Virus record (IMG/VR): IMGVR_UViG_3300002835_000018
Origin: a virus
Strand: one strand, 5' to 3'
Length of the DNA stretch: 64,000 nucleotides
Shown here: positions 1,648-43,058 of the stretch, piece after piece
Layout of the letters: each line of letters opens with the position of its first letter
Numbering within the stretch: position 1 is the first letter of the stretch
Position numbers and translations under genes: made by a program
The notes under the pieces: model-generated
What the model was told of the DNA's origin: nothing
The model's input: only the letters and a program-made list of their open reading frames with translations
The model's database searches: none

Positions 1648-1655
1648 GTGAAAAA

Positions 1656-2339: not shown

Positions 2340-2347
2340 GTGAGCAA

Positions 2348-15811: not shown

Positions 15812-16658
15812 CAAGAAGGTTTTTAAGGTAACTCTTGATAGCAAAGAGATGGAATTGTGCGTAATTCGCCCTAATGTCAAACAACGACAAGAAGGGCAAA
15901 AGACATACAATAAGGCATTTCGGGATGCAGTCGAATCAGGTGCTATCCTTCGTGCTAAAGTAAACAATGTGATGCGAGAGCAGAACTTGTGGGATGACAA
16001 TAAGGAAGCTCAGTATAAAAAATTAATTGAAAAAATTAATTCTAATGAAAGAAAGATCAAGTCTGGCGGTATTAAACTGTCTGAGGCAAAGGACTTAGCC
16101 CTTCAAATGAAGAAAGACAGGGCTGAACTTAGGTCGCTTACATCTGAGCGTTCTTCGTTAGATTCAAATACTGCTGAAGGTCAAGCAGATAATGCACAAT
16201 TCAATTACTGGGTTAGTGCTTGTACGGTGTATTCAGATACGGGTAAAACTTATTATGCTAGTTATGAAGACTATCTAAATAGGGATGATGACCCAGTAAC
16301 TAATCCAGCAGCAAGTAACCTAGCGTTGATGCTGTATAACCTTGATCCAGACTACGAAAAAAAGCTTCCAGAGAATGAATTTCTTAAGAAGTACAAGTTT
16401 GTAGATCAAGACTTGAATTTTGTTAATAAAAGTGGCCACAGGGTTGATTCCGAAGGAAGATTAGTCAACAAAGATGGCAGATATATCAATGAAAAAGATG
16501 AACTAATTGATATTCATGGCAATCTGGTTGATGAAAAAGGGGAGTATATTGTTGAATTTACTCCATTCTTGGATGATGAAGGCAAGCCCTTGGCTGAAAA
16601 AGCTGAAAAGGTTCAAGCGGTTGAACCTGTTGAAAAGAAAGATATCGAAAGTAAGTAA
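15795..16658 (+). CDS. Tail assembly chaperone (G-like) with C-terminal beta-hairpin repeats
   Basis: Directly upstream of the TMP; AAGGAGG RBS; VD.EG.LV type repeats. Confidence 0.55.
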   Translation: MSVNDNKKVFKVTLDSKEMELCVIRPNVKQRQEGQKTYNKAFRDAVESGAILRAKVNNVMREQNLWDDNKEAQYKKLIEKINSNERKIKSGGIKLSEAKDLALQMKKDRAELRSLTSERSSLDSNTAEGQADNAQFNYWVSACTVYSDTGKTYYASYEDYLNRDDDPVTNPAASNLALMLYNLDPDYEKKLPENEFLKKYKFVDQDLNFVNKSGHRVDSEGRLVNKDGRYINEKDELIDIHGNLVDEKGEYIVEFTPFLDDEGKPLAEKAEKVQAVEPVEKKDIESK

Positions 16659-16741: not shown

Positions 16742-19700
16742 ATGGCTTTTAATTTAACGGCACAGTTGAGTGTAGCATTAAATACGGCATCTTTAAAAAA
16801 TGCTGCTAACACTATCAATAGTCAATTGAAAGATGTTGGTGCAGTATCTTTGGGTATACCAAAAAATGATGCAGATAATTTAAGATATATTAAAGTGCAA
16901 GCAGCAGAAGCTAGTACTGCTATGGAACAGTTTGGTAGACAGTCAGGTTTAGCTGCTAAAAGATTTGTTGCTTTTACACTTACTGCTGGAGCTATTATCA
17001 CTTTTACATCTTCTCTAAAGCAAGCATTAACTGCTGCTGTAGAGTTTGATCGTGAAATGGTTAGATTGACTCAGGTTTCTACAGACAGTGTTGGACAAGT
17101 TGGTGCTGTAGGTAATGAAGTAAGTAGACTGTCAAAGAATTATGGCGTTTCCAGCAAAGACCTGCTTACAACGGCAGTGACATTAAAACAAGCTAACTTA
17201 AGTTTAGCAGACACTAAGGTTGCACTTGAAGCATTGGCTCAAGCTGCATTAGCCCCAAGCTTTGACAACCTGAGAGATACTACCGAAGGTGCTATTGCGG
17301 TTATGAATCAGTTTGGCATAAGTGCAAAAGACTTGGGTAATGCTCTCGGTGCAATCAATGCTGTTGCTGCTGAATTTGCTGTTGAAGCTCAAGACTTAAT
17401 TGAAGGTGTTCGTAAAGCTGGTGGTGCTTTTAAATCTGCTGGCGGTGACTTAAATGAATTTTTAGCATTATTCACATCAATTAGGCAAACAACTAGAGAA
17501 AGTGCAGAAAGTATTGGTACTGGCCTTAGAACTATATTTACTAGGGTACAGCGTAATGAAACTGTTGAAGCACTTAAGGATATTGGCGTACAGCTAAGAT
17601 ATACGGCAGACGAAGCTAGGGCTGCTGGCGATTTGGGTCTTGCAAATCAATTTGTTGGACCATATGAGGCTGTTAAAAGGCTTTCTGGTGCTCTTAATGA
17701 GCTTAGATCTACTGATCCAAGGTTTAGTGCCATTATCGAAGAACTTGGTGGATATAGGCAGATCTCCAAGGTTATACCACTTATTCAAGAATTTGGTGTC
17801 GCACAGAAAGCTTTAGGTATCGCCCAAATAGGTGGTGCTTCTCTTGCTCTAAATGCTGCACAAGCACAAGAGGCTTTTGGCGTAAAAATACAAAAGGTTA
17901 AAGAAGAATTTGCAGATTTTATTAGAAATCTTACCAATACATCTTCGTTTAGATCGCTCATAGATTTACTTCTTGGTGCTGCTTCTGCTGGTATTGCACT
18001 TGCTGATTCTTTAAAAGGAATTTTGCCAGTTATAACTGCTATTGCAGCAGTGAAGACGGTTCAAAGTTTAACTAGTTTTACAAAGGGTTTTGCTAGTACG
18101 GCTTTTGCTCCTGCACCAGCAAGTCAACCAAGTACTTTTTCTCCATTTTTGCCAACTGGGGGAAGAAAAGCTTCTGGTGGAATAATTAAAATGGCAAAGG
18201 GTGGAATTGTACCAGGAGTTGGTAGGGGAGATAAGGTTCCTGCATTGTTAGAACCTGGTGAGTTGGTTATTCCAAGAAATCGTTTTGATATGGGTGGAAA
18301 AGTATTAGATGTTATTAAAGAAACTGGTAAAACATCATTAAATGATTTATATGATCCAGAATTAGATGCGTATAAATTTATTGGACAAATAAAAAGAAAT
18401 AAATTAGGCAAATATGATAAATATAGAAAAGATTCGGAAAGAATGTTAAACGCTGGAAAAAATGTTTATGAAAATGAAATGGCTAATCCTAAATCAACTC
18501 CACAAAAAGCTGTTGAAAAAGCTAATTCTGCTGTTACAAAAGCTTTTGGAAGAAAGGTTGTGGGTGGAAGAGATAATTTTTTAGGTCAACTTGGGGAAAA
18601 TTATTTTAAGGTTAAAATCGGAGAAGGTAGTCAAAGTCAATACAATCAAATTGCTGGAGCTTTAGGCGAAGCCGATACTGCTAAAAAATTAAGAAGAAAT
18701 CCACAAACATCTAATTATGTAAAACTTCCAAATCAACAAGGAATGGATTTTATAGGTGACGATAAGTTAATTGAAACAAAGGTAACGAAAAATCAAGTTC
18801 CAGACATAGAAATTATAGCCAAGGCATTATTATATGAGGGAAAACTTGCTAATATAAATCCAAAAAGTTCTTATAAAAATCAAAGAGATGATTCAATTAA
18901 TTTATCTAATTTATCAGTATACGAATCATTTGAAAAAAAATTAGCTCTTGGAGGTTTAGTTCCAGGCGTTGGTAACACTGATAGTGTTCCATTAGATTTG
19001 CCAATTGGTTCTTATGTAATTAAAAAATCTTCAGTTAATAGCATAGGTGCTTCAAACTTATCTCGACTTGGAAGGGCTAGTGGTGGGGTTATTCCATCGT
19101 TGGTTATGCCAGGAGAATACATTTATACTCCAGATGAAACAAAGAAAATTGGAGTTCCTAACTTAGACCATATGAATACGACTGGCAGAAAGAAATTTGC
19201 TAGGGGTGGTTATGGCAGTTTAACAAAAGAAGAAATAAAAATTGCAAAACAGGTTGAAGGACAACTTAGGATACCAACAAATAAAGCAGAAAAAAGACAG
19301 AACAGACAAGAAGCAATAGCTGTTGCAGAAGATGTTACCAATACAACTAAACAAGTAAAAGCACTTGAACCTATTTATAAACAGCAAGCTAATAAGGTTG
19401 CTCAAGGTCAAAAAAATGAGGAAAACATAAATGCTGCAAGAGCAGAAATTCTAAAAACAATGGAAGAAAGAAAGGGAATATTAAAAGATGTTAAAGCAAA
19501 AGAACAAGAAGAAAGAGATATTCAAGCTAGACACATATCAAACGCTAAAGCTAAAGAGCAAGAAATTAGAGGTCTTGAAACTCAAAAAAGAGGTGTTGCT
19601 GTTGGAAGTAGAGAAGAAAAAGCAATTGATAAAAAGATACAAGCTGCAACAAGAGTTAAAACAAACTATGAAAACTTAGCAGCTAATAAGCAAGCAAGTA

Positions 19701-22700
19701 TTGATGCTGCTGCTTCAACAACAGCAGAAGCACAAAAAAATGTTGGTCAAAGTGTAAACAATTTAAAACAAGTAAATCAAAGTGCTGCTAGAAATAAAGC
19801 ATTCGTTGATCAGGCACAAAAAGATCTGGAAAAAACAGGATCAGAAATTAATGCATTAAAGAACAAATATAAAGATAATCCAGATGGAAATATTACAAAA
19901 GATGGAAAAGTAATAACATCAACTTATGGCGATGCTTATAAAAAAGAAATAAGGAAAGAACTTTCTAATTATAAAAAACTTTATGGCGAAGAAGCAACTG
20001 GTGGCACTCGTAAAGAAATTAGAGAAAATACTGCTCAAAGATTGAAGGCTGGTTATTTTAATCAAATAAAATCTTTTTCTGAAGCAAAAGGTTTAGAATT
20101 TGATGAAAAGTTTGCAAATAAGCAAGCTCAACAAATGGCTAGGGAAACCGTTGCTGGAAGAAGAAAGTTTGAAGTTTCATCTAAGGGCGAATTTTATGAT
20201 CCAGTTTTGGCCAATAGGTTAAAAACACAAGGTTATACAGAAACAGGTCAAAAGAAAATACTCAGAAAAGTTACTGATTTTGGAAAAGGTCTTGTTTCAA
20301 AAGAAGGTCTTCAAAATAGTTCTTTTGCTGTTAGTAGCGGTATTGGTCTTATAGCTTCAGCAGTAGGTCCACAAGCAGAAGATTATAAAAAGGCTGTTGC
20401 TGGTGGAGCAGAAGGTGAAAGCATAGTAAAGGCTGGTGCTGGAATTTCTGGTGGTTTAACAGGTGCTGCTACTGGATTGGCGATTGGAAGTTTTGCTGGT
20501 CCTTTTGGTATGGCTGTTGGTGCATTGATTGGTGGATTTACTGGTATAGTATCAGGTTTAACTGATGCTAAAAAACAAATCTCAAGCATAAAATTAGAAG
20601 AAGCTGGCAATAAGTTGAAAAATGCTTTTGAAGTTGCTGCTGCATCATTTGGAAAAATATCACAAGAAAATCTTAATGAAATTACAACCCTTCAATCAAA
20701 AATTGATGACGAAATTTCAACAAAAAGTGCAGCTTCTACTACCTTTTTTAGTAGAAAAAGTTATGCAAGTCAAGAAGCAACAAATACTGCTGTAGAAAGA
20801 AGAAATCAATATGCTGCACAAGCTGGTGGTATAAATGCCCTTTTGTCAAAACAACTTCAAGAGGATATAAAAAGTTCGCCTGTTGTTAGAGATGAGCAGG
20901 GAAAAAGAAAACCATATGAAATTGAAGGGTTTTTTAAAGATAGTGCAAACATAAGTCAGATTGCAAGATTGGCAATTGGTTTAGATCAACCAATAAGTAA
21001 GATTAAAAAACAGCTTGAAACATTTGCAAAAGATTTTGAGAAACAACAAAATGCTGCTAAAAGTCAAGCACAAGCAATTGAGGGGGCACAAAAATTAAGT
21101 ATAGCATTTTCTCTTATTGCTGATGCTTCAACTAATGCTGCTAATACGCTCAACAATTTAACACCAGCTTTTCAAACTATAACTGATTCACTATCTTCAA
21201 ATTTTTCAGTATCGCAAAAACAAAAAATATCAAATGAAATTCAATTGCCTTCCATAGACCCAACTGGGTTTAAGACTAATTTAAAAAATATTACTGGCGG
21301 TCTTGGTTCATCGGGAGAAAATCTACAATCTTCTGGAACAGTATTGGCAGAAATGTCTTCAATACTCCCCAATATTCTTGCGAATATAAGACCAAATGAT
21401 ATGGGTGGTGGTAAAGATCCACAATCAGCATTGCGTAGTGCTTTGACTCAACAATTAAAAGGTGTTGGTGGTCTTGATGAAACCCAAATACAAAGCTATG
21501 TAAATTCAGTCGTTGGAAAAATGGGTGAAGACTTTACAAAAATGCTTTCAGAGTCTGGTGGCGATTATAATGAACTTGCAAAAAAATTAATGTCAAATGT
21601 TTCTGATCCATTCTTAAATGCTTTTAAAACCATAACGGTTAACTTAGAAAAAGCAGCAGACACATATGTTGCTGGAATAAATAAATTAGTTCAAGCAACG
21701 CTTACAACTGTGCAGGAATTTGATAAGCTTTCAAAAATTCAACAGCAAACAAGAAATATTAGGACAAATATAGCTATTGAAGATGAGGTAAAAAGACAAA
21801 AAAAAGCAAGACCATTTTCTGATGTGAATGAAAATGTAATAGGTTTGAATATGACAAATGTGGCAGATCAAACTCAAGCATTTAGAGAACAACAGGCTAG
21901 ATTAGCTGGCGTTAATGTAAATGGTCAACAATTGACACCAGATGAAATACAAGCAAAAATAGAGCAAAATAGAGCCAGAACAGAACAGGCACAAACAAAA
22001 CAAAACAATTCAAAATTAACTGCTACAGAAGGCAGGGGCGATTATGTTGAAGCAACAAATGAATTAGGTAGATTAAAAGTAGAGGCTTCTCTTCTTAACC
22101 AAGCTATGAAAAATCTTGCTGATTCAACCGAAGAGATTTCTGCGATTGAGCAAAGGGTTGGAAAAATAAGACAAGAAATAGCAAAAGAAGAACAAGATAA
22201 TGCAAGAAAACAATCTGAAACAGAAAACAAAGGTGAAAAATTATTAACATCGTCACCAGAACAATTGCAAAGGCTTCAAGCTGGAAGTCAATTAGCAAAT
22301 GTAGCAAAATCAATTGGTGGAAATCTTTTGAGGTTTAATGTTGAACAAAGAAAAGCTATTTTTGAATATTTAGATTTTTCTGGAGATGAAGGCAAAAAAT
22401 TAAAATCTCAATTTTTACAAGCAAGTGGTTTTGTTTCTAAACCAGAAACAGCAATGCAAGATAAGTTTGGTCCACAATTAGCACAATTAAATCAACAGCT
22501 TCTTGCAGTAATGGCGGTAAGAGAACAGGCACAGATAAATATAATAAAAGATCAGCAAACTTTGCAGGGAGAATTTTTTACAAAACTATCTGCACAAAAT
22601 GAAGTTTTCTTTACAAGACTAGGGCAACAATTGTTAATGCCACAAGTGGCTCAACAACAGCAGATTCAATTAGAAAGCAATGCAAAATTAGTAGATATGA

Positions 22701-25700
22701 AAGCTTCAGAAAAGTCTGTTGCATTATTTAATCCATTAGATGCACTTGCTATACAAAATAAAGAGGTTGGTGGTGGTCAAGCTTATTACAACAATAAGAT
22801 AAGGCCAAAAACCAAAGACATAACTTCTTTCTTGCTTGCTGAAGAAGAAAGAAAAAAGATAGCAGAATTACAACCAGGGGTTGGAAAAGATAGTACAGCT
22901 ATAGCAATTAACGCTTTGGCTGGCGGTAATCTTGCTGCTAAGTTACCATCGGCACTTGCTCAAAATAAAGCTGTTCAAACTGCCAATATTGACTTAGGCA
23001 AACTATCTGAAGAAATACAAGCTGCTAATAAAGGTGGTACAGATTCTACACAATTAGCATCAATAATAACTGCTGCTATTGGTAAGAGGCTTGCTACTCT
23101 TCGAGCAGAACAAGAACAAGTTCAAGGAAATTTAGCTGGATCATTAGGTCTTAAAATTACTACTGATCAAAAAGGCAATAGAGATATAGCTAAAGATCAA
23201 GATCCTACTAAGGGTGGTGTTGGTGGTTTTGTAACAGATTTAATTAAAAATAATGTTACTGGTGCTGCTTTTACACAAGCTACTGAAGATGTAAAAAGGC
23301 TTGGCAATGTTATTGGCACACAATTTACTGCTCAAATGGGTATTCTTGAAGCACAAACAACAGCAGCAACAACACAAATAGCAGCATTAAATATTCAAAT
23401 AGCAGCTTTAGGAAAACCAAAACCTCCAGTACCAAATGCTCAAAATGTAAATGCTATTGCACCACCACAAGTGGCAAATCCACCAGTTGCACAAAACAAT
23501 CTTGTTAGACCACAAGGTATACCATTTGCACCAGCGAGATTAAGCACTGGCGGTATGGTAACCCATTCTTCTGCGATAGTTGGTGCAGATCCAAAAGTAT
23601 TTAAGCCAATAGGTCCAGATACAATACCAGCTATGTTGAATGATGGCGAATATGTGGTTAACGCAAAAGCAACATCTGAAAATCTTCCTTTGCTACAAGC
23701 CTTAAATGGCGGTGGAACAGTTAAACCTACAAAAGCAATGAATGATGGCGGTGCTGTTAAATATTTGGCTGGCGGTGCTTTTGTTGGTGGTCCTGCTGGT
23801 GCTGGTGTTGCTGTTAATGCAGTTGAATTAAAAAGAATTATAGATGATGAAAGACAAAGAAGGGTTGATCTTGCTATATTACAAAAATTTGGAAACCTTA
23901 GAGGTTCTTGGAGAAGAAATGCTTTAAATAACTCTTTGAGAATACAAGCTGGAGATAGTAATCTTACGAATATTCCTTATCAGGGTGGACAGTTTATTGC
24001 AAGTGCAATAGTTTCTCCTGCGTTTGATGAACCTTGGACTCCAATTAAAGATATAACAACCGCAGGGTTAAAAACAAATAATTTAAATCCGCAACAAAAA
24101 GAAGCTTTAAATAAAAAAGCTATATTTGGAATGCCATTAAATATTAAACCAGTTCATTATCAGTGGATTACTGGAATTACAGACAAGTACATTCGTGGTG
24201 ATTTAACACAACAACAAAAAAACACTAATATTAATGCTAATCAAAGTGTTTTTGATGTAACAGCAAAAGATGCACAAGGAAATAGCAAAGAATATTATAG
24301 AAGAAGGGCAAAATTAGACCCATTTTTTCAAGGCTTATTAGTATATGGTGCTCCAGTACAGTTTGGAGAAAATAAAAAATTTAGTGATACATTTGGATTT
24401 GATCTTGCGGATGAAAATTTTCCAGTGTTAGGTTTTTCTAAGGGCGGTCAAGCTGGTCGTAAAACTCCAGCTATGGTTCAATCTGGAGAATTTATTGTTG
24501 GTGCAGATAAAGCTAAAAAGAATAAGGGTCTTTTAGATCATATGAATGGCGGGGGTAAGGTTAGTTATTTAAGCTTGGGAGGTATGAGTGAAGCAGATGA
24601 GTTTATGAGAAATTCATCTAAACCAGGTGTTCAAAACATATTACAAACTTTTAGGAATAATGATAGTGGTCCAGGTAATCTTAAAATTAAAAGGATGGAC
24701 CCACTTAACACAACTGGCGTAGCAACAAGGGGCACTGAATATCTTTTAGAAAGAGCAAGACACTACCTTGGAGAACGAATAGCTAATCAATTTTCAAGAA
24801 TTTTAAGTAAACCAGCAGAAGATGTTGGACCAGATAGAAGAGTTATGAAAAAAATGCAGATGTTTCAAGATATTCTGCCTACATTAGAAAAAAATCCAGA
24901 ACAACTTGAGAGCACAAGAGGGTTTTACAATATAAAAAGAGACACAGCAGTAACTTTAATACGAGGTGAAGCTGGACCAGTCCAGCCCCAATCGTCACGA
25001 AAAACCACTAGGCATGAATTTGGTGGTCATGCTCTTACATATGCTGCTGAAAAACCTGGAGCCAAGCTTAAAAATTCAATATTTGGATCTCTTGGATTAG
25101 ACACGCTTGAGAACTTGTTTAAACCAACAAGAACAGTTGCTGAAACACACGCTAGAATTGTTGAAGAAAAAAGTCCAGCAGCTTCATTAAAAAGAATGAT
25201 AAGTTTTTTATCTAATCAAAAAGCAGCCAATGCTTATGGTGCTAACCCAATTTTAGGTAAAGATGCATTAGGATTTCATGCACAAGCCCTTAAAGATTTA
25301 CAAGGAAATAAAGGTCAGATTCCAATAGATGGTCTTTTATCAGGGGCTGGTAAAGGTAAAGAGGCAGAACTTTTTAAAGAATTTTTGACAAGAGCAGGTA
25401 AAAAAACATCATCCATAAGTGAAGTAGCTGGTAAGTCCTACATTAATGCAAAAGCATTTGTTGGTGCTGGTCTTTTAAATCCTAAAAAATCTATAGGTGC
25501 AGGATTAGTTGCAGCAGCATCTTTATTTGGTTCTACTGGAAAATCATATGGACAAGAAGCAATTAAAGCCAAAGATAGTGATTCAATTGTAATACCAGGA
25601 TATGAATCAACAGAAGAACAAATAAAAGCTGATAACGATTTGAAAGCTATACAAGCAAATGAAAAGTTTTGGGAAAATGCTATTATGGCAGGGTATATTG

Positions 25701-28700
25701 CTTCTCCTTTTGCTGCTGTTGGTACTGTTGCTTTAGCATCAAGATATAGAACTAATCAAAAAATAGCTGGTTTATTTCCAGATGATGTAGATGCTCAAAA
25801 AAAATATAGGAAAGGAAGTGCAGCCGACAGAATGATAATGATTAAAAATTTAAAGTATACCGAAGAAGGAAAAAGTTTAGTAAAAACATATGAGTCTTTT
25901 ATAAAAGACACAACTAATAAAGGTATAGTTACTAGAAATGTACCATTTGCTGGATTTTTTGGTCGTCTTGGTAAAGGTATTGGTAAGTTTGGCGTAAATA
26001 CTGTCAAGGGTATTGGTAATATTGTTGGCGATTTTAACAGTGGTGAGCTTCAGTCAAATATTATAAAAAGTATTGGTATTGGCAAATCAGACGAAATACC
26101 AATGAATAAAGCTGGTGGAGTAGATTGGGGTAAAAATATTCCAACCAATCAAATAGAAGCTAGTATAAAAAGTCCAGATACCACTCCACAAATGAGGGCT
26201 GTTTTACAAAAAATATTGGATGAAAGAGCAGGAAAACCAACTTCAGAAGTTTCAACAAATCCAGTTGTTTCAGAAACATCAAATAATCCTATTAAAGTTG
26301 AAAAAGTAATTAATGATCTTTCTAATTTTGAACGAAATAAAAATGTTTCAATGAAACAAATAAAAGATTTAAATTTAAGCGACCTTAAAAAAATATATGA
26401 AAATAAAAATCTTCCTAAAAAATATAGAGAACAAGCACAAACAGAAAGATTTAATAGAATTGTAAACGATAAAACAAATAATAATATTGCTGCAAACAAG
26501 CAAGATTTTGTAAATGAATTTAAAAAATTAAGTCCGCTTGATCAAAACAGATTTGTAACTATGTATGAGGCAGATCAGTTAACAGCACCATTAGATTCAG
26601 AAATACCAAAACCAAAAACAAACGAAGCAAAACCAGTTGTAATAGAAAAACCAATTAAAAATAGTACCAATAATAATATTTACGAATTTTTAAAGAGTAA
26701 AAAAGTTCCAGAAAACATAATAAAAGCCACACTTAAAAAAACCTCAAGATTTTTAGAAAGTCCTATTGCACAACCAATAACTAAAAAAATTGCATTGGAT
26801 ATTGCCAATGACATAAAAACAAGAATGGTTACTGCTTCACAAAAATCTACAGAGGGTAAACCTAATGAGTTACAACTTTCAAAAGAAAAGTATAAGGCAG
26901 ATGCCAACAAGTTTTTACAAAATGAATTGGATGCTAGATATGGTGAAAGAAAATTAATTTCTAAAAATGGGCTTAAACCTCTTAAATTAACTAGAGAAAC
27001 ACCAATTCCTGGTAATGTAATAGCGGAAATTCAATCCAGAAACCCTTATCTTTTAGCAAATCAGATTTACAACGCAAGAGAAAATGCTGCCACTGCTAAT
27101 TTTAGAACAGAAGGATTATCAGTAGAACAAATTCAAGCTAAAAAAATAGAATATGCTAAAAGAGCAGCCATTTTTCGAAACATAAAAAGTGCAGAACAAC
27201 AAAGAGCAATATCGCTTGCTCAAGCAAGAGAGGTCATTAGATTAGAAAATATAGCTTTACAAGAAGTAGAAGGTTTTAAAAGAGCAGAAGGTGCAAGAAA
27301 AAGAATAGAAAATGCTAATAAAGAAATAGAAAGACAAAACGCAGCAAAAAATAAAAATGTAATTGGAATAAAACCAGATGGTGAAGTAAAAGCTGGAAAA
27401 GTTCAAGTGAAAGTGGAAAAAAAAGTTCGGGATGTATTTAATATAAAACCAGATGAAGTAAAAGCCGAAAAAAATCTTGGCATTCCTAAAGAAATTCCAA
27501 AAGAGATATATGGTTTAAAACCAGATCCAGTAAAAACAGATATAACAAATAAAACTGAACCAAGCAAAGTACCACCAAAAGTTGATGTAACAACAGGCAA
27601 TAAACCAAATCTAAATGATGCAGGAAAAGGAACAGTTGTTCCAACAACAACAGAGGGAAGAACTGGTGTTCAACCAAGCAAAGTACCACCATCAGAATTA
27701 GTTGGACCACTACCACCAACACCAGAACAAATAGCAGCAGAAGCAGCAGCAAAAGCTGAAACAGCAAAAGCAACTGAAGCAGCTAAAGCAGAACCAGCAG
27801 CAAAAAACAATGCACCTGTTGAAGCACCAAAAACTGTTAGACAAATTTTAGAAAAAAACGGTGTCACTCCAAGTGAAATGGCTCAAGTACAAAATCAATT
27901 TCCAGATATTGCAAAAGGTAGAAAAATTAATGAAATAATGAAAGCTGTCCAACGAGTAAGAGAAAAAAATAAAGCAAGTTTTGTGGAAACAAACAATCAA
28001 CTAATTAGAGCAAACAATAACTCTAAAACTATAATTGGCAATAGTTCAAAATTCAATATGATCGATGGTGGAAAAACAATACAAAAATATGGCACTTATG
28101 CACAAATAGCATTGCCACTCGTTAAAACATCAATTGTTGATTATATGAATGGTGTTGATCCAAGTGAAATTAAGAAAAAGTTGGGTGCAGAAGCATTAAC
28201 TTCAGCAGCACTTATACCTCTGTTTGAAGGTCTTACAAGAATACCAAAAGTAGCTCCATTTGCTGGACCTTTAGGATTAGCATTTCTGCCTCAAACAGCT
28301 ACTGACTTAGAAAAAATAGGAACGGCTCTGACCACTAACAAAAATCAAGGTCAAATTAAATCTGTTGTTGAAAATTATGGAACAGTTTTTCCAGAAATTG
28401 CAAATCTATACGACAAGAAAAAATATGAAAGTTCAAGTTTAATACTTGGAGAAAGCGATGCTGATACAACACTTGCTGGACAAGGAGCTTCTTATCTTGG
28501 AACAATAGCTGCTGGAGCACTTGCTGGAAGTGCTATTCCTATTCCTGGTGGCACATTACTTGGTGGTGCAGCCGGATTTTTAATTGCTTCTTATAAATTT
28601 TTAAGAGATACATATGCTAGAAATTTAAAACTAAGAAAAAACGATGAGGCTAAAACACTAAGAAAGTATTTACAACCAAGGTTTGATGCTAGAGGTATGG

Positions 28701-31696
28701 GTTCCGACAATGCTGCTTTTTTTGATGACAAGGATGATACATTATACACAAAATTACTCAAAGAAAACCCATCTTTGTTTTTCAACAACTTTTCTGATGA
28801 AATTGAATCTTATGGAATAGTAACGGATAGGAGATATGGAGATTTAAAAAATCAAAGATATCTTAATGAAAACCCCTATACATCAATAGAAGATGCAATA
28901 CTTTTTGAAAAGTTAAAAGATGACAAAGGCAAAGGCGAGAGAGGAATGCCAGAGTCGTTTATCTCAGAAATAACTCCTTTGCAAAAAAGTGGGGCAAGTG
29001 AAGGACAACTTAATAAAATCAGAGAAAAATATGAATCAAAAAATGCAGCCACAGATTTCATTTTGAAAAAACTTGGAAAAGGTGATGTTGAAAAAATAAA
29101 CGACTATGATAAAAGTGCAATATTTGGAAGATTGTTTAAACAAGATAAAAACATATTAAATATTGAAGAGCTTGGACCAAAAATATTGTTTGACGATCAA
29201 AATGAACAAAAAATAGTAGAAATAGCAAAATCACTTGGTGTTAAGATGCCAGATGATCAAGAATATTCTATAAAAGATTTAAATACAAATTATGATGTTT
29301 TTAGAAAAAATTTAAAGCTAGAACAGTTGGCTCAAAATATAAAAACTACTGCAAATCTTGAAAACTTAGAAGGTCAAACAATATTAAGTGCAAGTGAAAA
29401 ACTAAAAAAACAAAAAGGTGGACTTTATGTATTACCAATTCAAAGAAGAAGACTTGATGACTATATAAATCAAACATATAAAGAAGTTTCTAATTTAATG
29501 GAACCAACTTATACAGTTGACGGATTAGAGGGAGCAGAACCAAGAAAAATAGATACAGATAAGGAAAAAAGAAAAAATTTACAAAAAAATATTGAAAACG
29601 AATTATTTAATGGGTCTTATGAGGAAGATGCAACAAAAACAGATTTGCTAAATTATGTTAAATTAATGAAAAATATAAATCAGAAAAAATATTATAAAGA
29701 TAGAAATTATGGTGTGGAAGAAATAAAATATGCTGGCCTATTGCCACAATATCAAAATATTGAAATTGAAAAAAGACAAAAAGAAAATGCTTTAATATTA
29801 GAACAATTTAGCAAAGACTTTGGTAAAAAACTTACTGCAATAGTTCCATTCTTCAACAACAATTTATTCAACACAAAATTTGATGCATTGCAATATAGTT
29901 CTAATGATGGAAATGTACAAACCAAAGAGGACTTCTTTAAATATGATAAAGATAAAATAAAAAAAGATTTAAATATTCCAGAGAAAGAAGAAGTGGTTTC
30001 AAAAAACATATATGACTATTTTGAAAAAAACAAGAGTATAAAATACAATTGGATTGGTGCTAAAGAAAATAATTTAGATCAACCAATAGCTATGGCCTCT
30101 GGCGGTATTGTTCCAAGCAGTGCTCCAAACCCTGACCCATCCTTCTTTGTCGCAAAGGGCAGTGATACTGTACCAGCAATACTATCTCCTGGTGAGTATG
30201 TAGTTAATGCTAGGGCAACTGCTGCTAATCTCCCTCTCTTGCAAAATCTTAACAGTGGTGGGGCGGTAAAGTACTTATATCGTGGTGGTGATCTTCAAGC
30301 TATAAACCCATACTATGCTAGGCTTTCTGGACAATCTCCAGGCAGAGGATACATTAACTCTCGTGGAAGACAAAGGACAGACTTTGATATAGGGGCACAG
30401 GGTTATTTAGCCTCTAAAAACTTTAACCCTAGAAGTAACGCAAACACTCTTAATAATTTGGCTAATTATGCAGCAGATAGATCAGGATTTTTAAACAAGC
30501 CAGGATATGGAAGATACACTTACAATAGTTTCTATGGACCAAAACACTCAAAAGAATTTGGTGGTGATGGCTATGGTTCTACTTCTTTTAGCGGTAGAAA
30601 TGCAATTCCTGATTATCTTGGTGGACTAAATGCGTTATCTGATTCTCGATATGGCTCACCAAAAATGGCTGGTGTTACAAAATTCGCACTCGAAGATTGG
30701 GCTTTCGAAGATATTCTTAACAATAGAGAAATTTCCAGAGGGCCAATTGGTGGTTATCAAATGTCCGATGTTGGAAGCAGATACATATCTGGATTAATTG
30801 GTGGACCACCCGCTGATAAAGTAAGTCTTAAAGACTATATGAATGAACTTGGTTTTAGTAAGGCTGGAAATCAAACATTCCAAGGCGTTAGTGCTAACAA
30901 AGCATTAGCAATGGGAAGCCTTGCTGATACTCCAGGAAGTAATGTGGGCATAGCTCAACAGGCAATATCTTCAATACAAACTAAAGGTTTAGGAAACCTA
31001 TCGGTAAACAATACAGATGTGGCAGCAGCTACAGCTTTAGATACTATTAAAAATGCAAGAATGTCGCACTATAATCAGCCAAGAAGATTTTTTGCCAACG
31101 GTGGCTCAACCACTGATACTCAACCAGCTATGTTAACACCAGGAGAGTTTGTTGTAAGTAAACCAGCAGTAGATAGAGTTGGAACTGCATTTTTAGATAG
31201 AGTAAACAATTATGCTAAAGGTGGAAAAGTTGGTTATTATCAAAATGGAACTGGTAGTTCTAATTCTGGAAGTGGACCAATTTTAGGTGTTGATTTTAAA
31301 ATACTTCAATCTGCATCCGAAAATTTACAAGGTGTAGCAGGACTTGTGAGTTCGGCTGTAATACAATTAGGAACATCTTTTGGACAAGCTGCTGGTACAA
31401 TAACATCATCAATGTCATTAATTGATAAAGTTGGATCACTAATGAATAGCTCATCATCAGCAATGTACTCTAGTAGTCTTGCTTTTGAAAGAGCAGTCAA
31501 CAATCTAGCATCTGCACTAGATCGTGTACCAAAAACAATAAACTTGGCTATTGCACCATTATCATTGAATGTAAGCTTTAATACCCCAAGCGTACTAGCA
31601 GCAATACAACAATCATTGTCTGGTATAACAACTAATGTTGCAGGAATGATTCGTTCAGCAATTGAAGACAACAATAATGATCAAATGAGGGCATAA
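16742..31696 (+). CDS. Giant tape measure protein (4984 aa), polyvalent
   Basis: N-terminal TP901-type TMP domain (AVEFDREM, FAVEAQDL..G..KAG, IGTGLRTIF.R), long coiled coils, Gly-rich hydrophobic segments and repeated D.VPA.L.PGE.V modules. Follows the tube and chaperone genes. Confidence 0.85.
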   Translation: MAFNLTAQLSVALNTASLKNAANTINSQLKDVGAVSLGIPKNDADNLRYIKVQAAEASTAMEQFGRQSGLAAKRFVAFTLTAGAIITFTSSLKQALTAAVEFDREMVRLTQVSTDSVGQVGAVGNEVSRLSKNYGVSSKDLLTTAVTLKQANLSLADTKVALEALAQAALAPSFDNLRDTTEGAIAVMNQFGISAKDLGNALGAINAVAAEFAVEAQDLIEGVRKAGGAFKSAGGDLNEFLALFTSIRQTTRESAESIGTGLRTIFTRVQRNETVEALKDIGVQLRYTADEARAAGDLGLANQFVGPYEAVKRLSGALNELRSTDPRFSAIIEELGGYRQISKVIPLIQEFGVAQKALGIAQIGGASLALNAAQAQEAFGVKIQKVKEEFADFIRNLTNTSSFRSLIDLLLGAASAGIALADSLKGILPVITAIAAVKTVQSLTSFTKGFASTAFAPAPASQPSTFSPFLPTGGRKASGGIIKMAKGGIVPGVGRGDKVPALLEPGELVIPRNRFDMGGKVLDVIKETGKTSLNDLYDPELDAYKFIGQIKRNKLGKYDKYRKDSERMLNAGKNVYENEMANPKSTPQKAVEKANSAVTKAFGRKVVGGRDNFLGQLGENYFKVKIGEGSQSQYNQIAGALGEADTAKKLRRNPQTSNYVKLPNQQGMDFIGDDKLIETKVTKNQVPDIEIIAKALLYEGKLANINPKSSYKNQRDDSINLSNLSVYESFEKKLALGGLVPGVGNTDSVPLDLPIGSYVIKKSSVNSIGASNLSRLGRASGGVIPSLVMPGEYIYTPDETKKIGVPNLDHMNTTGRKKFARGGYGSLTKEEIKIAKQVEGQLRIPTNKAEKRQNRQEAIAVAEDVTNTTKQVKALEPIYKQQANKVAQGQKNEENINAARAEILKTMEERKGILKDVKAKEQEERDIQARHISNAKAKEQEIRGLETQKRGVAVGSREEKAIDKKIQAATRVKTNYENLAANKQASIDAAASTTAEAQKNVGQSVNNLKQVNQSAARNKAFVDQAQKDLEKTGSEINALKNKYKDNPDGNITKDGKVITSTYGDAYKKEIRKELSNYKKLYGEEATGGTRKEIRENTAQRLKAGYFNQIKSFSEAKGLEFDEKFANKQAQQMARETVAGRRKFEVSSKGEFYDPVLANRLKTQGYTETGQKKILRKVTDFGKGLVSKEGLQNSSFAVSSGIGLIASAVGPQAEDYKKAVAGGAEGESIVKAGAGISGGLTGAATGLAIGSFAGPFGMAVGALIGGFTGIVSGLTDAKKQISSIKLEEAGNKLKNAFEVAAASFGKISQENLNEITTLQSKIDDEISTKSAASTTFFSRKSYASQEATNTAVERRNQYAAQAGGINALLSKQLQEDIKSSPVVRDEQGKRKPYEIEGFFKDSANISQIARLAIGLDQPISKIKKQLETFAKDFEKQQNAAKSQAQAIEGAQKLSIAFSLIADASTNAANTLNNLTPAFQTITDSLSSNFSVSQKQKISNEIQLPSIDPTGFKTNLKNITGGLGSSGENLQSSGTVLAEMSSILPNILANIRPNDMGGGKDPQSALRSALTQQLKGVGGLDETQIQSYVNSVVGKMGEDFTKMLSESGGDYNELAKKLMSNVSDPFLNAFKTITVNLEKAADTYVAGINKLVQATLTTVQEFDKLSKIQQQTRNIRTNIAIEDEVKRQKKARPFSDVNENVIGLNMTNVADQTQAFREQQARLAGVNVNGQQLTPDEIQAKIEQNRARTEQAQTKQNNSKLTATEGRGDYVEATNELGRLKVEASLLNQAMKNLADSTEEISAIEQRVGKIRQEIAKEEQDNARKQSETENKGEKLLTSSPEQLQRLQAGSQLANVAKSIGGNLLRFNVEQRKAIFEYLDFSGDEGKKLKSQFLQASGFVSKPETAMQDKFGPQLAQLNQQLLAVMAVREQAQINIIKDQQTLQGEFFTKLSAQNEVFFTRLGQQLLMPQVAQQQQIQLESNAKLVDMKASEKSVALFNPLDALAIQNKEVGGGQAYYNNKIRPKTKDITSFLLAEEERKKIAELQPGVGKDSTAIAINALAGGNLAAKLPSALAQNKAVQTANIDLGKLSEEIQAANKGGTDSTQLASIITAAIGKRLATLRAEQEQVQGNLAGSLGLKITTDQKGNRDIAKDQDPTKGGVGGFVTDLIKNNVTGAAFTQATEDVKRLGNVIGTQFTAQMGILEAQTTAATTQIAALNIQIAALGKPKPPVPNAQNVNAIAPPQVANPPVAQNNLVRPQGIPFAPARLSTGGMVTHSSAIVGADPKVFKPIGPDTIPAMLNDGEYVVNAKATSENLPLLQALNGGGTVKPTKAMNDGGAVKYLAGGAFVGGPAGAGVAVNAVELKRIIDDERQRRVDLAILQKFGNLRGSWRRNALNNSLRIQAGDSNLTNIPYQGGQFIASAIVSPAFDEPWTPIKDITTAGLKTNNLNPQQKEALNKKAIFGMPLNIKPVHYQWITGITDKYIRGDLTQQQKNTNINANQSVFDVTAKDAQGNSKEYYRRRAKLDPFFQGLLVYGAPVQFGENKKFSDTFGFDLADENFPVLGFSKGGQAGRKTPAMVQSGEFIVGADKAKKNKGLLDHMNGGGKVSYLSLGGMSEADEFMRNSSKPGVQNILQTFRNNDSGPGNLKIKRMDPLNTTGVATRGTEYLLERARHYLGERIANQFSRILSKPAEDVGPDRRVMKKMQMFQDILPTLEKNPEQLESTRGFYNIKRDTAVTLIRGEAGPVQPQSSRKTTRHEFGGHALTYAAEKPGAKLKNSIFGSLGLDTLENLFKPTRTVAETHARIVEEKSPAASLKRMISFLSNQKAANAYGANPILGKDALGFHAQALKDLQGNKGQIPIDGLLSGAGKGKEAELFKEFLTRAGKKTSSISEVAGKSYINAKAFVGAGLLNPKKSIGAGLVAAASLFGSTGKSYGQEAIKAKDSDSIVIPGYESTEEQIKADNDLKAIQANEKFWENAIMAGYIASPFAAVGTVALASRYRTNQKIAGLFPDDVDAQKKYRKGSAADRMIMIKNLKYTEEGKSLVKTYESFIKDTTNKGIVTRNVPFAGFFGRLGKGIGKFGVNTVKGIGNIVGDFNSGELQSNIIKSIGIGKSDEIPMNKAGGVDWGKNIPTNQIEASIKSPDTTPQMRAVLQKILDERAGKPTSEVSTNPVVSETSNNPIKVEKVINDLSNFERNKNVSMKQIKDLNLSDLKKIYENKNLPKKYREQAQTERFNRIVNDKTNNNIAANKQDFVNEFKKLSPLDQNRFVTMYEADQLTAPLDSEIPKPKTNEAKPVVIEKPIKNSTNNNIYEFLKSKKVPENIIKATLKKTSRFLESPIAQPITKKIALDIANDIKTRMVTASQKSTEGKPNELQLSKEKYKADANKFLQNELDARYGERKLISKNGLKPLKLTRETPIPGNVIAEIQSRNPYLLANQIYNARENAATANFRTEGLSVEQIQAKKIEYAKRAAIFRNIKSAEQQRAISLAQAREVIRLENIALQEVEGFKRAEGARKRIENANKEIERQNAAKNKNVIGIKPDGEVKAGKVQVKVEKKVRDVFNIKPDEVKAEKNLGIPKEIPKEIYGLKPDPVKTDITNKTEPSKVPPKVDVTTGNKPNLNDAGKGTVVPTTTEGRTGVQPSKVPPSELVGPLPPTPEQIAAEAAAKAETAKATEAAKAEPAAKNNAPVEAPKTVRQILEKNGVTPSEMAQVQNQFPDIAKGRKINEIMKAVQRVREKNKASFVETNNQLIRANNNSKTIIGNSSKFNMIDGGKTIQKYGTYAQIALPLVKTSIVDYMNGVDPSEIKKKLGAEALTSAALIPLFEGLTRIPKVAPFAGPLGLAFLPQTATDLEKIGTALTTNKNQGQIKSVVENYGTVFPEIANLYDKKKYESSSLILGESDADTTLAGQGASYLGTIAAGALAGSAIPIPGGTLLGGAAGFLIASYKFLRDTYARNLKLRKNDEAKTLRKYLQPRFDARGMGSDNAAFFDDKDDTLYTKLLKENPSLFFNNFSDEIESYGIVTDRRYGDLKNQRYLNENPYTSIEDAILFEKLKDDKGKGERGMPESFISEITPLQKSGASEGQLNKIREKYESKNAATDFILKKLGKGDVEKINDYDKSAIFGRLFKQDKNILNIEELGPKILFDDQNEQKIVEIAKSLGVKMPDDQEYSIKDLNTNYDVFRKNLKLEQLAQNIKTTANLENLEGQTILSASEKLKKQKGGLYVLPIQRRRLDDYINQTYKEVSNLMEPTYTVDGLEGAEPRKIDTDKEKRKNLQKNIENELFNGSYEEDATKTDLLNYVKLMKNINQKKYYKDRNYGVEEIKYAGLLPQYQNIEIEKRQKENALILEQFSKDFGKKLTAIVPFFNNNLFNTKFDALQYSSNDGNVQTKEDFFKYDKDKIKKDLNIPEKEEVVSKNIYDYFEKNKSIKYNWIGAKENNLDQPIAMASGGIVPSSAPNPDPSFFVAKGSDTVPAILSPGEYVVNARATAANLPLLQNLNSGGAVKYLYRGGDLQAINPYYARLSGQSPGRGYINSRGRQRTDFDIGAQGYLASKNFNPRSNANTLNNLANYAADRSGFLNKPGYGRYTYNSFYGPKHSKEFGGDGYGSTSFSGRNAIPDYLGGLNALSDSRYGSPKMAGVTKFALEDWAFEDILNNREISRGPIGGYQMSDVGSRYISGLIGGPPADKVSLKDYMNELGFSKAGNQTFQGVSANKALAMGSLADTPGSNVGIAQQAISSIQTKGLGNLSVNNTDVAAATALDTIKNARMSHYNQPRRFFANGGSTTDTQPAMLTPGEFVVSKPAVDRVGTAFLDRVNNYAKGGKVGYYQNGTGSSNSGSGPILGVDFKILQSASENLQGVAGLVSSAVIQLGTSFGQAAGTITSSMSLIDKVGSLMNSSSSAMYSSSLAFERAVNNLASALDRVPKTINLAIAPLSLNVSFNTPSVLAAIQQSLSGITTNVAGMIRSAIEDNNNDQMRA

Positions 31697-42948: not shown

Positions 42949-42977
42949 TAGATAGTTCTTTTTTAAGCAAATTATAA

Positions 42978-43031
42978 AGCTCCTTTGACCAATCGGCATC
43001 AAAGCCTTTCAGCCAAAGGAGTTCTTCTTTT
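42978..43031. terminator. Possible bidirectional terminator at the convergence point
   Basis: CTCCTTTG / CAAAGGAG inverted repeat with inner GGC/GCC pairing, between converging genes. Confidence 0.35.
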
Positions 43032-43058
43032 ATATCATCTATTGTCATAGATTCGATA

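What the first reader, a model, noticed from the sequence alone, without database searches (positions are those of the whole stretch)
16742..31696. Giant TMP built as a polyprotein: about 7 GG-bounded modules bracketing cargo domains
Seen: the module [FYLM]xxGG...D.[VI]PA.L..GE[YF]V....L..[LM]N...[FY]xxGG occurs at about 18158-18300, 18935-19210 (two copies), 23540-23776, 24434-24583, 30092-30289 and 31091-31249. Globular, non-coiled-coil segments lie between paired modules (18300-18930, 23780-24430, from 24585, 30290-31090). Known: one such motif is common near TMP C-termini, TMPs are ejected into the host, and at about 0.15 nm per residue 4984 aa would imply a tail of about 750 nm. Inference: only part of the protein is a ruler. 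The repeated modules may be processing or docking sites (di-Gly cleavage) or recombination junctions that let the TMP carry swappable effectors into the cell.
Basis: partly seen in the sequence, partly recalled or inferred. Interest (0 to 1): 0.85.

Follow-up and report, generated by a model that had tools for sequence, protein, structure and literature searches.

The report
Giant tape measure with swappable cassettes
The 4,984-residue tail "ruler" protein of an uncultured phage is punctuated by seven copies of a short motif also found where phages lambda and T5 cut their own rulers, and related phages exchange the enzyme-like segments lying between these motifs, so the tail probably delivers ready-made enzymes into the host, although neither cutting nor delivery has been shown.

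Summary
Window 16742-31696 (+) is one intact 4,984-aa tape measure protein (TMP). It has seven Gly-flanked modules at the stated coordinates. Six are recovered by leave-one-out profiles; M2 is a divergent copy.

- **What the module is:** the known TMP C-terminal motif. It matches lambda gpH 732-781 and mycobacteriophage Douge gp16 (two copies), and TMPs of TM4, Nodularia and Gordonia phages.
- **Family pattern:** all 121 giant relatives carry 2-8 copies. Copy number tracks protein length (r = 0.80 over 228 proteins).
- **Cassette exchange:** a relative at least 95% identical in DNA across most of the gene has an unalignable segment exactly between the end of M1 and the start of M2. A backbone only about 50% identical carries the window's cassette at 98%.
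- **Cargo:** enzyme-like by motif only, a D-x8-ExK nuclease-like domain and an HExxxH...E...H domain. Relatives hold Pfam-supported ADP-ribosyltransferases in the same slot.
- **Cleavage:** inferred only. T5's mapped cut (R1127|AEGG) precedes the [AS]xGG motif that starts most modules. A cut there in lambda fits the mass of gpH*.
- **"Too long to be a ruler":** not supported. P23-45 (5,002 aa) and Nodularia phage 2AV2 (3,404 aa, 795 nm tail) show such rulers exist.

This scan reported the same architecture in at least seven other genomes. I found no publication describing it.

The parts
16742..18169 (+). N-terminal conserved TMP domain (aa 1-476), with two hydrophobic helices (aa 70-93 and 402-446)
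   Evidence: Pfam PhageMin_Tail matches aa 126-337 at E 4e-24, and PHROGs TMP families match. It is the only part shared by all 119 relatives, at 52-98% identity. Hydropathy.
18170..18298 (+). Module M1 (aa 477-519). It starts with ASGG/AKGG and ends with FDMGG.
   Evidence: Leave-one-out score 16.3 bits. It is the left border of the exchanged cassette.
18299..18940 (+). Cargo-1 (aa 520-733): a PD-(D/E)xK-like putative nuclease with G667, D669, E678 and K680 (motif starts at nt 18740)
   Evidence: G-x-D-x8-E-x-K is invariant down to a 28%-identical homologue. The nearest named ESM Atlas clusters are Tox-REase-3/5/7/9 at 0.85-0.88, which is a lead only. The model places D and ExK on adjacent strands, but its pLDDT is 45. 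There is no Pfam or PDB hit.
18941..19210 (+). Tandem modules M2 (aa 734-778, divergent) and M3 (aa 779-823)
   Evidence: They form the right border of the exchanged cassette. They are nearly identical in relatives that carry the other cassette.
19211..23539 (+). Long helical K/Q/E/A-rich ruler segment (aa 824-2266) with a Gly-zipper hydrophobic hairpin at aa 1244-1276
   Evidence: Weak Pfam Gly-zipper_Omp match. Hydropathy. Its second half is the most widely conserved internal region, found in 43 relatives.
23540..23776 (+). Module M4 (aa 2267-2345)
   Evidence: Leave-one-out score 34.6 bits.
23777..24433 (+). Cargo-2 (aa 2346-2564): a compact alpha/beta domain of unknown fold
   Evidence: AF2 pLDDT is 60-88 over aa about 2372-2562. 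No match in PDB or Atlas fold searches. Present in 15 close relatives at 35-84% identity.
24434..24583 (+). Module M5 (aa 2565-2614)
   Evidence: Leave-one-out score 22.7 bits.
24584..25441 (+). HExxxH...E...H domain (aa 2615-2900; H2758, E2759 and H2763 begin at nt 25013): a putative metal-dependent hydrolase
   Evidence: H, E, H, a downstream E and a further H are invariant in a three-clade alignment. The domain was found only in giant TMPs among 1.84 billion representatives. It sits in a different slot, M1-M2, in the P0019/24/28/29 clade. There is no Pfam hit and the model has low confidence.
25442..30091 (+). Long variable region (aa 2901-4450): K/N/E-rich and Pro-rich stretches, with hydrophobic segments at aa 2980-3000 and 3916-3950
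   Evidence: It is the most variable part among close relatives. Hydropathy. No Pfam hits.
30092..30289 (+). Module M6 (aa 4451-4516), the best-conserved copy
   Evidence: Leave-one-out score 53.7 bits. About 65 aa are nearly invariant across otherwise divergent relatives.
30290..31090 (+). Cargo-3 (aa 4517-4783): G/S/A/N/Y-rich, function unknown
   Evidence: It is a divergence island (56-91% nt) between M6 and M7, which are 96-99% identical, in the comparison with L009. The Atlas search gave no recognisable features.
31091..31249 (+). Module M7 (aa 4784-4836)
   Evidence: Leave-one-out score 25.9 bits.
31250..31693 (+). C-terminal Ser/Ala-rich tail (aa 4837-4984), probably the hub-binding end
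   Evidence: This is an inference by analogy with the resolved C-termini of T5 pb2, lambda gpH 818-849 and Douge gp16 1658-1699. It diverges from L009 at 56-87% nt.

Best explanation
This is the tail tape measure protein of an uncultured phage. The phage genome is at least 125 kb and about 33% G+C.

Besides the usual TMP parts, the protein carries a row of cassettes. The usual parts are the conserved N-terminal domain, long helical stretches with Gly-zipper membrane hairpins, and a C-terminal hub-binding tail. The cassettes are fenced by a conserved element: a short [F/K/R/L/Y/M]|[AS]xGG motif, usually extended into a module of about 50-70 aa. The module consensus reads roughly GG-VP...D-VPA-L-PGE-V......L--LN-GG. 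It is the same motif that sits next to the maturation cleavage region of lambda gpH.

**Shown here**
- The fences are conserved throughout a family of more than 200 TMPs.
- Fence number grows with protein length.
- Related phages have exchanged or radically diversified the segments between fences, with borders exactly at the fences.

**Inferred**
- The cassettes are enzymes: a PD-(D/E)xK-type nuclease and an HExxxH metal hydrolase in this protein, and ADP-ribosyltransferases in relatives.
- They travel in the tail lumen as part of the TMP and are expelled into the host envelope or cytoplasm ahead of the DNA. There they act on host targets or defences.
- The fences are maturation cleavage sites of the T5/lambda type, cut just before [AS]xGG. 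Cutting would release the cassettes as separate polypeptides.

The whole polypeptide can still serve as the length ruler.
For: **TMP identity.** PF10145 matches at E 4e-24 and PHROGs TMP families match. Gene order is conserved in relatives: ORFs of 348, 121-127 and 285-294 aa lie upstream, and ORFs of 350-659 aa lie downstream.

**Module identity.**
- A profile of the seven copies hits Douge gp16 twice (E 4e-9) and lambda gpH 730-782. The family profile scores lambda gpH 732-781 at 20.5 bits.
- tblastn hits in 35 cultured phages nearly all fall under genes annotated as tape measure protein.
- TM4 gp17 has one copy and the Nodularia phage TMPs have two.

**Family pattern.**
- There are 662 modules in 121 relatives, with 2-8 in each protein.
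- Module count correlates with length at r = 0.80 over 228 proteins.

**Exchange at fences.**
- The relative P0003 (locus L009) is at least 95% identical in nucleotides across most of the gene. It drops to 22-59% between aa about 517 and 735. The borders fall at 'RF-xGG' and 'ALGG'.
- P0009 carries cargo-1 at 98% identity on a backbone only about 50% identical.
- The HExxxH domain occupies different slots in different clades.
- 152 short cassettes fall into 62 sequence clusters, 41 of them singletons.

**Cargo in relatives.** ART-PolyVal (P0048 aa 534-743) and ADPrib_exo_Tox (P0054 aa 600-749, P0078, P0090) lie in slot 1. Bare [AS]xGG motifs flank them, for example P0054 'RM|ATGG' at 569 and 'ML|AEGG' at 749.

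**Cleavage anchor.**
- T5 pb2 is cut after R1127 (PMC10038345). The sequence there is PR|AEGG, one of only two [AS]xGG motifs in 1,219 aa.
- Lambda gpH residues 1-733, which end just before ATGG, weigh 79.8 kDa. gpH* is reported at about 78 kDa.
- 510 of 655 family modules start with [AS]xGG. The background rate is 1.85 per 1,000 aa.

**Published precedent for an enzyme on a TMP.** P23-45 gp96 carries a virion RNA polymerase (PMC10770324).
Against: - No direct evidence exists that this protein, or any family member, is cleaved, or that its cassettes enter the host.
- The family profile does not score T5 pb2 (-4.6 bits). The T5 link therefore rests on a four-residue motif.
- The lambda cleavage site is unknown (PMC12617516).
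- The cargo assignments in this protein rest on motifs alone. There is no Pfam hit even at E 10 and no hit by sequence against PDB. Both AF2 models have mean pLDDT of about 45. Fold searches found nothing above noise.
- The two cargo-1 alleles may be diverged homologues rather than unrelated swaps: hhalign gives E 2e-4 and probability 45% over the D...ExK core.
- The HExxxH spacing is not the classical zincin HExxH.
- The 1,836 residues after M5 contain no fence, so much of the protein does not fit a simple 'cargo between paired modules' picture.
- P23-45 gp96 carries its enzyme without any such module.
Confidence: 0.55

Rival explanations
1. The modules are assembly or structural joints rather than cleavage sites. 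On this view they re-nucleate the TMP oligomer, or dock it to the tube wall or to the tail assembly chaperones, on either side of each inserted domain. The protein stays in one piece, as is assumed for P23-45 gp96. Cassette exchange at modules is then only a by-product of their sequence conservation.
For: - About 65 residues of M6 are nearly invariant across otherwise divergent relatives. That is far more than a protease site needs.
- Modules occur in pairs or tandems around cassettes.
- In lambda, the stretch holding the module (gpH about 690-817) stays in the virion as part of gpHC.
- P23-45 shows that a TMP-borne enzyme can work while fused.
Against: - AF2 predicts the modules as disordered when alone.
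- The one mapped TMP cut (T5) and the mass-inferred cut in lambda coincide with the motif that starts the modules.
- Bare [AS]xGG motifs, without the rest of the module, also fence Pfam-defined domains in relatives.
Confidence: 0.3
2. The inter-module segments are not cytoplasmic effectors. They are envelope-penetration equipment: pore formers, cell-wall hydrolases or binders, and periplasmic factors. They vary because they track host envelope diversity, like the muralytic motifs of T5 pb2, TM4 gp17 and P1 Sit.
For: - All experimentally characterised TMP inserts other than the P23-45 RNA polymerase are muralytic.
- The protein has several Gly-zipper or hydrophobic hairpins.
- Cargo-2 and cargo-3 have no recognisable enzyme motif.
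Against: - The recognisable domains have cytoplasmic-type targets. Relatives carry NAD-dependent ADP-ribosyltransferases. This protein has a D...ExK nuclease-like motif, whose nearest Atlas clusters are Tox-REase families.
- No lysozyme, SLT, M23 or NlpC/P60 domain was detected.
Confidence: 0.13
3. The giant ORF is an assembly chimera or a decaying gene, and the repeats are a meaningless low-complexity feature.
For: The sequence comes from a metagenome. Most of the protein has no database annotation.
Against: - The identical protein lies on a 124,923-bp contig.
- Collinear relatives of 42-89% identity come from many independent samples and sources, including ENA, JGI, Logan and NCBI.
- The frame is open for 14,955 nt.
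- The modules are conserved at protein level but are only 65-71% identical at DNA level.
Confidence: 0.02

Closest known systems
Lambda gpH and its maturation (gpH to gpH* plus gpHC)
   Same: The repeated module is homologous to gpH residues 732-781. In lambda this stretch lies directly after the Gly-rich region where gpH is cut. Like the modules here, it is bounded by ATGG on both sides.
   Different: Lambda has one copy near the C-terminus and no enzyme cassette. The window's protein has seven copies spread over 4,984 aa. The lambda cut site and its protease are still unknown (PMC12617516).
T5 TMP pb2 (pb2* plus pb2C, cut after R1127; Linares et al. 2023, PMC10038345)
   Same: A TMP is cut during tail assembly between its hydrophobic stretch and an enzyme-like C-terminal piece that stays in the tail. 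The cut precedes AEGG, the motif that starts most modules here.
   Different: The family module profile does not detect pb2 (-4.6 bits). T5 has one cut and one cargo, and that cargo is muralytic.
Thermus phage P23-45 gp96 (5,002-aa TMP with an N-terminal virion RNA polymerase; Chaban et al. 2024, PMC10770324)
   Same: It is a giant TMP of the same size that carries a working enzyme into the host and still sets an extremely long tail.
   Different: It has one N-terminal enzyme, no gpHC-type modules, and no reported cassette exchange or cleavage.
Polyvalent proteins of phages and conjugative elements (Iyer et al. 2017, PMC5512222)
   Same: Both are giant multi-domain proteins delivered with the DNA. 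Both carry mixed effector domains, including ART-PolyVal, which is present in relative P0048. Both are proposed to be processed into separate units.
   Different: That paper never mentions tape measure proteins. Its carriers are head or conjugation proteins, and its proposed processing enzyme is the MPTase domain. No MPTase-PolyVal match is found here, and the fences are a different element.
Embedded motifs of mycobacteriophage TMPs (TM4 gp17, Douge gp16) and TMP-related CIS effectors (Sle1/Tme; PMC13277306)
   Same: TM4 gp17 (aa 701-752) and Douge gp16 (two copies) contain the same module. CIS effectors related to TMPs have exchangeable functional domains.
   Different: They have one or two modules and single inserts. 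The modules themselves have not been described as fences in the papers I could search.

Membership tests
Phage tail tape measure protein (Pfam PF10145 PhageMin_Tail / TP901 family) | Match to the family profile above the curated threshold | tested here: met
   PF10145 scores 86 bits against a cut-off of 33.2, at E 4e-24, over aa 126-337. phrog_4211, phrog_167 and phrog_28 also match.
Phage tail tape measure protein (Pfam PF10145 PhageMin_Tail / TP901 family) | Position in the tail gene block, after chaperone-like ORFs and before the distal tail or hub genes | tested here: inconclusive
   Gene order is conserved in six relatives. The neighbours themselves have no family match, apart from Laminin_G_3 in the 659-aa downstream protein.
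Phage tail tape measure protein (Pfam PF10145 PhageMin_Tail / TP901 family) | Protein length sets tail length | not testable with these tools
   The phage is uncultured, so there is no EM. Precedents are 2AV2 (3,404 aa, 795 nm) and P23-45 (5,002 aa).
Lambda gpHC-type TMP module | Profile-level sequence homology to the gpH 730-782 region | tested here: met
   E 0.07 with the seven-copy profile, and Douge gp16 at E 4e-9; 20.5 bits and conditional E 2e-8 with the family profile.
Lambda gpHC-type TMP module | Maturation cleavage next to the module | not testable with these tools
   Only mass compatibility in lambda and the T5 motif coincidence are available.
T5 pb2-type cleavage site | The [AS]xGG motif directly follows the cut bond | tested here: met
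   The motif is present at the start of M1-M7 and at 510 of 655 family modules. This shows presence of the motif only, not cleavage.
T5 pb2-type cleavage site | Homology of the surrounding region to pb2 residues 1128 onward | tested here: not met
   The family module profile scores pb2 at -4.6 bits.
Polyvalent proteins (Iyer et al. 2017) | Several unrelated effector or enzyme domains in one giant polypeptide | tested here: inconclusive
   In this protein the evidence is at motif level only, from the nuclease-like and HExxxH domains. Relatives have Pfam-supported ART domains.
Polyvalent proteins (Iyer et al. 2017) | MPTase-PolyVal zincin peptidase domain | tested here: not met
   No Pfam match at E up to 10 for the HExxxH segment or its homologues.
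PD-(D/E)xK nuclease superfamily (cargo-1) | Conserved D...(D/E)xK catalytic motif on adjacent strands | tested here: met
   D669, E678 and K680 are invariant in seven sequences down to 28% identity. The model places them on strands 189-193 and 196-200 in segment numbering. The other cassette allele has D-x9-E-x-K.
PD-(D/E)xK nuclease superfamily (cargo-1) | Alpha-beta-beta-beta-alpha-beta core fold, or a profile match to a member family | tested here: inconclusive
   The AF2 model has pLDDT 45. The best restriction-enzyme match is BsaWI at Z 5.0, within noise. There is no Pfam or PDB sequence hit. Atlas feature neighbours are Tox-REase families at 0.85-0.88, a lead only.
Zincin metallopeptidases (HExxxH segment) | HExxH motif with a third ligand downstream | tested here: inconclusive
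   The window has HEFGGH, which is HExxxH. The P0008 clade has HERFH, which is HExxH. A downstream E and a further H are invariant. The fold was not resolved.

The most novel reading that the evidence does not exclude
The gpHC-type module, with its leading [AS]xGG, is a universal self-contained processing cassette of long-tailed phages. It would be cut at the same bond in lambda, T5 and these giants. Giant TMPs would then be true polyproteins that release several independent host-directed enzymes (nucleases, ADP-ribosyltransferases, metal hydrolases) from the tail lumen ahead of the DNA. This would be a second virion route for protein delivery, with cassettes traded between phages at the fences.
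Probability: 0.3. Interest if true: 0.85.

Novelty: new variant of a known kind. Interest (0 to 1): 0.62.

Why it matters
If the reading is right, the tail lumen is a modular delivery compartment for host-directed enzymes, not only a ruler and a channel.

It would also give a concrete, testable candidate for a question open since the 1970s, namely where lambda gpH is cut. The prediction is the bond before A734-T-G-G. The same motif would predict processing sites in hundreds of uncharacterised TMPs.

The fences would also be natural splice points for putting designed cargo into phage tails in laboratory phage-host systems.

If the modules are instead uncut joints, they still mark a conserved and undescribed element of TMP architecture.

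Tried and rejected
- **Homotrimer of module M6** (complex prediction, three copies). No verdict; scores were 0.05 and 0.15 against a mark of 0.42. Not used as evidence either way.
- **AF2 of M1-cargo-1-M2-M3** **and of M4-cargo-2-M5-HExxxH**. Mean pLDDT was 45 and 46. The modules came out disordered, and only cargo-2 was confidently folded.
- **Fold searches** (VIA wide, Foldseek PDB, Atlas). Nothing rose above noise, so no fold is assigned to cargo-2 or to the HExxxH domain.
- **Pfam on the cargo segments and their homologues at E up to 10**, **PHROGs on the neighbours** **and PDB sequence searches of the cargo profiles**. No meaningful hits.
- **Stand-alone homologues of cargo-1**. None by the word-index search.
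- **blastn of the gene against cultured phages**. No match.
- **Whole genome of the window.** Not held.
- **Resemblance to the LepB/LexA 'SM-P-L--GD-V' box.** I considered whether the module's D-VPA-L--GE-V might mark an S24/S26 peptidase. I rejected this by inspection: the position of the would-be nucleophile is not conserved among the seven copies, and the module is far too short.
The T5 cut mapped by mass spectrometry lies two residues before the GG.
- **Recent intragenic duplication or gene conversion of modules.** Rejected, because the copies are only 65-71% identical in DNA.
Full report

The region 16742-31696 (+) is a single open frame of 4,984 codons.

| Module | aa |
|---|---|
| M1 | 477-519 |
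| M2 | 734-778 |
| M3 | 779-823 |
| M4 | 2267-2345 |
| M5 | 2565-2614 |
| M6 | 4451-4516 |
| M7 | 4784-4836 |

- Profiles built from six copies find the seventh at 16-54 bits for M1 and M4-M7, and at 8.5 bits for M3.
- The best score in 200 shuffles of the protein was 4.1 bits or less.
- M2 is not recovered this way and is a divergent copy.
- At DNA level the copies are only 65-71% alike. They are old paralogues kept by selection on the protein.

**2. What is the protein?**

- Pfam finds only PhageMin_Tail (aa 126-337, E 4e-24), and PHROGs finds TMP families at the N-terminus.
- The identical protein lies on a 124,923-bp metagenomic contig.
- 146 giant relatives of 2.7-7.1 thousand aa and at least 220 shorter ones exist in ENA, JGI, Logan and NCBI data.
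- Gene order around the gene is conserved in relatives.
- No cultured phage matches at DNA level, and no whole genome is held for the window.

**3. What is the module?**

- A profile of the seven copies hits solved TMP chains only. These are Douge gp16 twice (aa 972-1011 and 1414-1461, E 4e-9), lambda gpH 730-782, and one further TMP.
- A family profile scores lambda gpH 732-781 at 20.5 bits.
- tblastn with M6 finds 35 cultured-phage records, nearly all under genes annotated as tape measure protein. They include Gordonia, Mycobacterium TM4, Nodularia, Dinoroseobacter, Erythrobacter and Clavibacter phages.
- TM4 gp17 has one copy (aa 701-752). The Nodularia TMPs have two in tandem.

The module is therefore an ordinary, widespread TMP element. 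What is unusual here is its multiplicity and its placement.

In lambda, gpH is cut in the Gly-rich region at about residues 690-710 into gpH* and gpHC. The part of gpHC that holds the module (about 690-817) is unresolved by cryo-EM. The site and the protease are unknown (PMC12617516).

**4.

- The module profile hits every one of 121 giant relatives, 662 copies in all, with 2-8 per protein.
- Over 228 family members of 1.9-7.1 thousand aa, module count correlates with length at r = 0.80. It rises from about 2.8 copies at 2,000 aa to about 6 above 4,500 aa.
- Only the N-terminal 480 aa, the modules, part of the central helical region and the extreme C-terminus are shared widely. The segments between modules are not.
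- 152 short inter-module segments of 450 aa or less fall into 62 sequence clusters, 41 of them singletons.

**5. Exchange happens exactly at the fences.**

- The closest relative is P0003, on locus L009. It is at least 95% identical in nucleotides across most of the gene.
- Identity collapses to 22-59% between aa about 517 and 735.
- In the protein alignment, identity stops at the 'RF-xGG' end of M1 and resumes at the 'ALGG' start of M2.
- Two more divergence islands lie between M6 and M7, and after M7.
- Conversely, P0009 carries the window's cargo-1 at 98% identity on a backbone that is otherwise about 50% identical.
- The HExxxH domain that follows M5 here sits between M1 and M2 in the P0019/P0024/P0028/P0029 clade.

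A caveat applies to cargo-1. The two alleles may be very diverged homologues rather than unrelated genes. Both have a D-x8/9-E-x-K core, and hhalign links them weakly (E 2e-4, probability 45%).

**6. What is the cargo?**

- **Cargo-1** (aa 520-733).
  - G667, D669, E678 and K680 are invariant down to a 28%-identical homologue.
  - The low-confidence model places D and ExK on adjacent strands.
  - The nearest named ESM Atlas clusters are Tox-REase families at 0.85-0.88, which is only a lead.
- **HExxxH segment** (aa 2615-2900).
  - H, E, H, a downstream E and a further H are invariant across three clades.
  - Among 1.84 billion representatives it was found only in giant TMPs.
- **Cargo-2.** It folds confidently (pLDDT 60-88) but matches nothing.
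- **Cargo-3.** It is Gly/Ser/Asn/Tyr-rich and unrecognised.
- **No profile support.** None of these segments has a Pfam hit.
- **Relatives.**
  - Slot 1 holds Pfam-supported ADP-ribosyltransferases: ART-PolyVal in P0048, and ADPrib_exo_Tox in P0054, P0078 and P0090.
  - Precomputed annotations list a staphylococcal-nuclease domain and small T2SSF_N-like inserts.
  - In P0054 the ART domain, as defined by Pfam, is fenced by 'RM|ATGG' and 'ML|AEGG'. Similar bare motifs fence the P0048 ART and the P0019 nuclease-like cassette.

**7. Are the fences cut?** There is no direct evidence. Three indirect points bear on it.

- T5 pb2 is cut after R1127 according to mass spectrometry (PMC10038345). The sequence there is PR|AEGG, one of only two [AS]xGG motifs in 1,219 residues.
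- In lambda the module is bounded by ATGG on both sides. Residues 1-733 weigh 79.8 kDa, close to the roughly 78 kDa reported for gpH*.
- 510 of 655 family modules begin with [AS]xGG, preceded by F, K, R, L, Y or M. The background rate is 1.85 per 1,000 aa.

Against this:

- The family profile does not recognise pb2.
- About 65 residues of M6 are nearly invariant, which is more than a protease site needs. That leaves room for a docking or oligomerisation role.
- A homotrimer prediction gave no verdict.

**8. The ruler argument.**

Published cases argue otherwise.

- P23-45 gp96 has 5,002 residues. It defines an 'extraordinarily long tail' and carries an active RNA polymerase (PMC10770324).
- Nodularia phage 2AV2 has a 3,404-aa TMP with two modules and a 795-nm tail.

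Embedded domains therefore need not be excluded from the ruler. P23-45 gp96 has no such modules, so the fenced multi-cassette design is a distinct variant.

**9. Prior knowledge and novelty.**

- The polyvalent-protein paper does not mention tape measure proteins.
- My searches found single-enzyme TMPs and TMP-related CIS effectors with exchangeable domains. They found no description of fenced cassette arrays.
- Earlier reports of this scan describe the same architecture in at least seven other genomes, and they pointed me to the T5, lambda and P23-45 precedents. I checked each of these on the papers and sequences myself.

I class this as a new variant of a known kind. It is well supported as an architecture and as a pattern of exchange. 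Cleavage and delivery remain unproven.

Noticed in passing
window 4069-7404 (+): A 1,111-aa protein in the virion gene block matches the plant Stigma-specific STIG1-like Cys-rich family (PF04885, E 3.7e-20, three stretches). This is an odd family to find in a phage structural region.
   Followed up: no
window 9187-10974 (+): A 595-aa protein with an N-terminal family-2 glycosyltransferase domain (E 3.7e-11) sits among the structural genes upstream of the tail block.
   Followed up: no
window 937-3031 (+): Three tandem ORFs of similar size (236, 227 and 227 aa). The one tested (1656-2339) has a Phage Tail Collar domain plus Gp10_C. They look like a fibre or collar gene triplication.
   Followed up: no
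window 15428-15811 and 15795-16658 (+): The two ORFs just upstream of the TMP (127 and 287 aa) overlap by 17 nt, with the second in the +1 frame. This is not the usual -1 G/GT arrangement. The pair is conserved in relatives as 121-127 aa plus 285-294 aa. Neither has a family match.
   Followed up: partly
window 31698-33677 (+): The 659-aa protein directly after the TMP carries a ConA-like Laminin_G_3 domain (E 2.4e-6). It has the same length, 659 aa, in close relatives. It may be a distal tail protein with a sugar-binding insert.
   Followed up: no
P0009 aa about 823-884 (relative; also P0014 on L008): A 61-aa insert directly after M3 resembles the T2SSF_N domain (PF28597 in the precomputed annotations). 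It is a mini-cassette at a fence.
   Followed up: partly
L018 (Nodularia phage vB_NpeS-2AV2) 4983-15197: A 795-nm tail for a 3,404-aa TMP gives 0.23 nm per residue, well above the 0.15 nm of an alpha-helix. The usual ruler rule does not hold for this phage, or the tail measurement or gene model needs checking.
   Followed up: no
L016 (phage T5) pb2 aa 1128-1155: The T5 stretch called a metallopeptidase motif, directly after the cut (AEGGMMYPGV...GEHGTEVV), resembles by eye the start of module M1 (AKGGIVPGVG...EPGELVI). The family profile does not score it. It may be a very diverged copy of the module.
   Followed up: partly
window about 42950-43060: Coding strand and GC skew switch here, from the + strand structural block to a long - strand block.
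   Followed up: no
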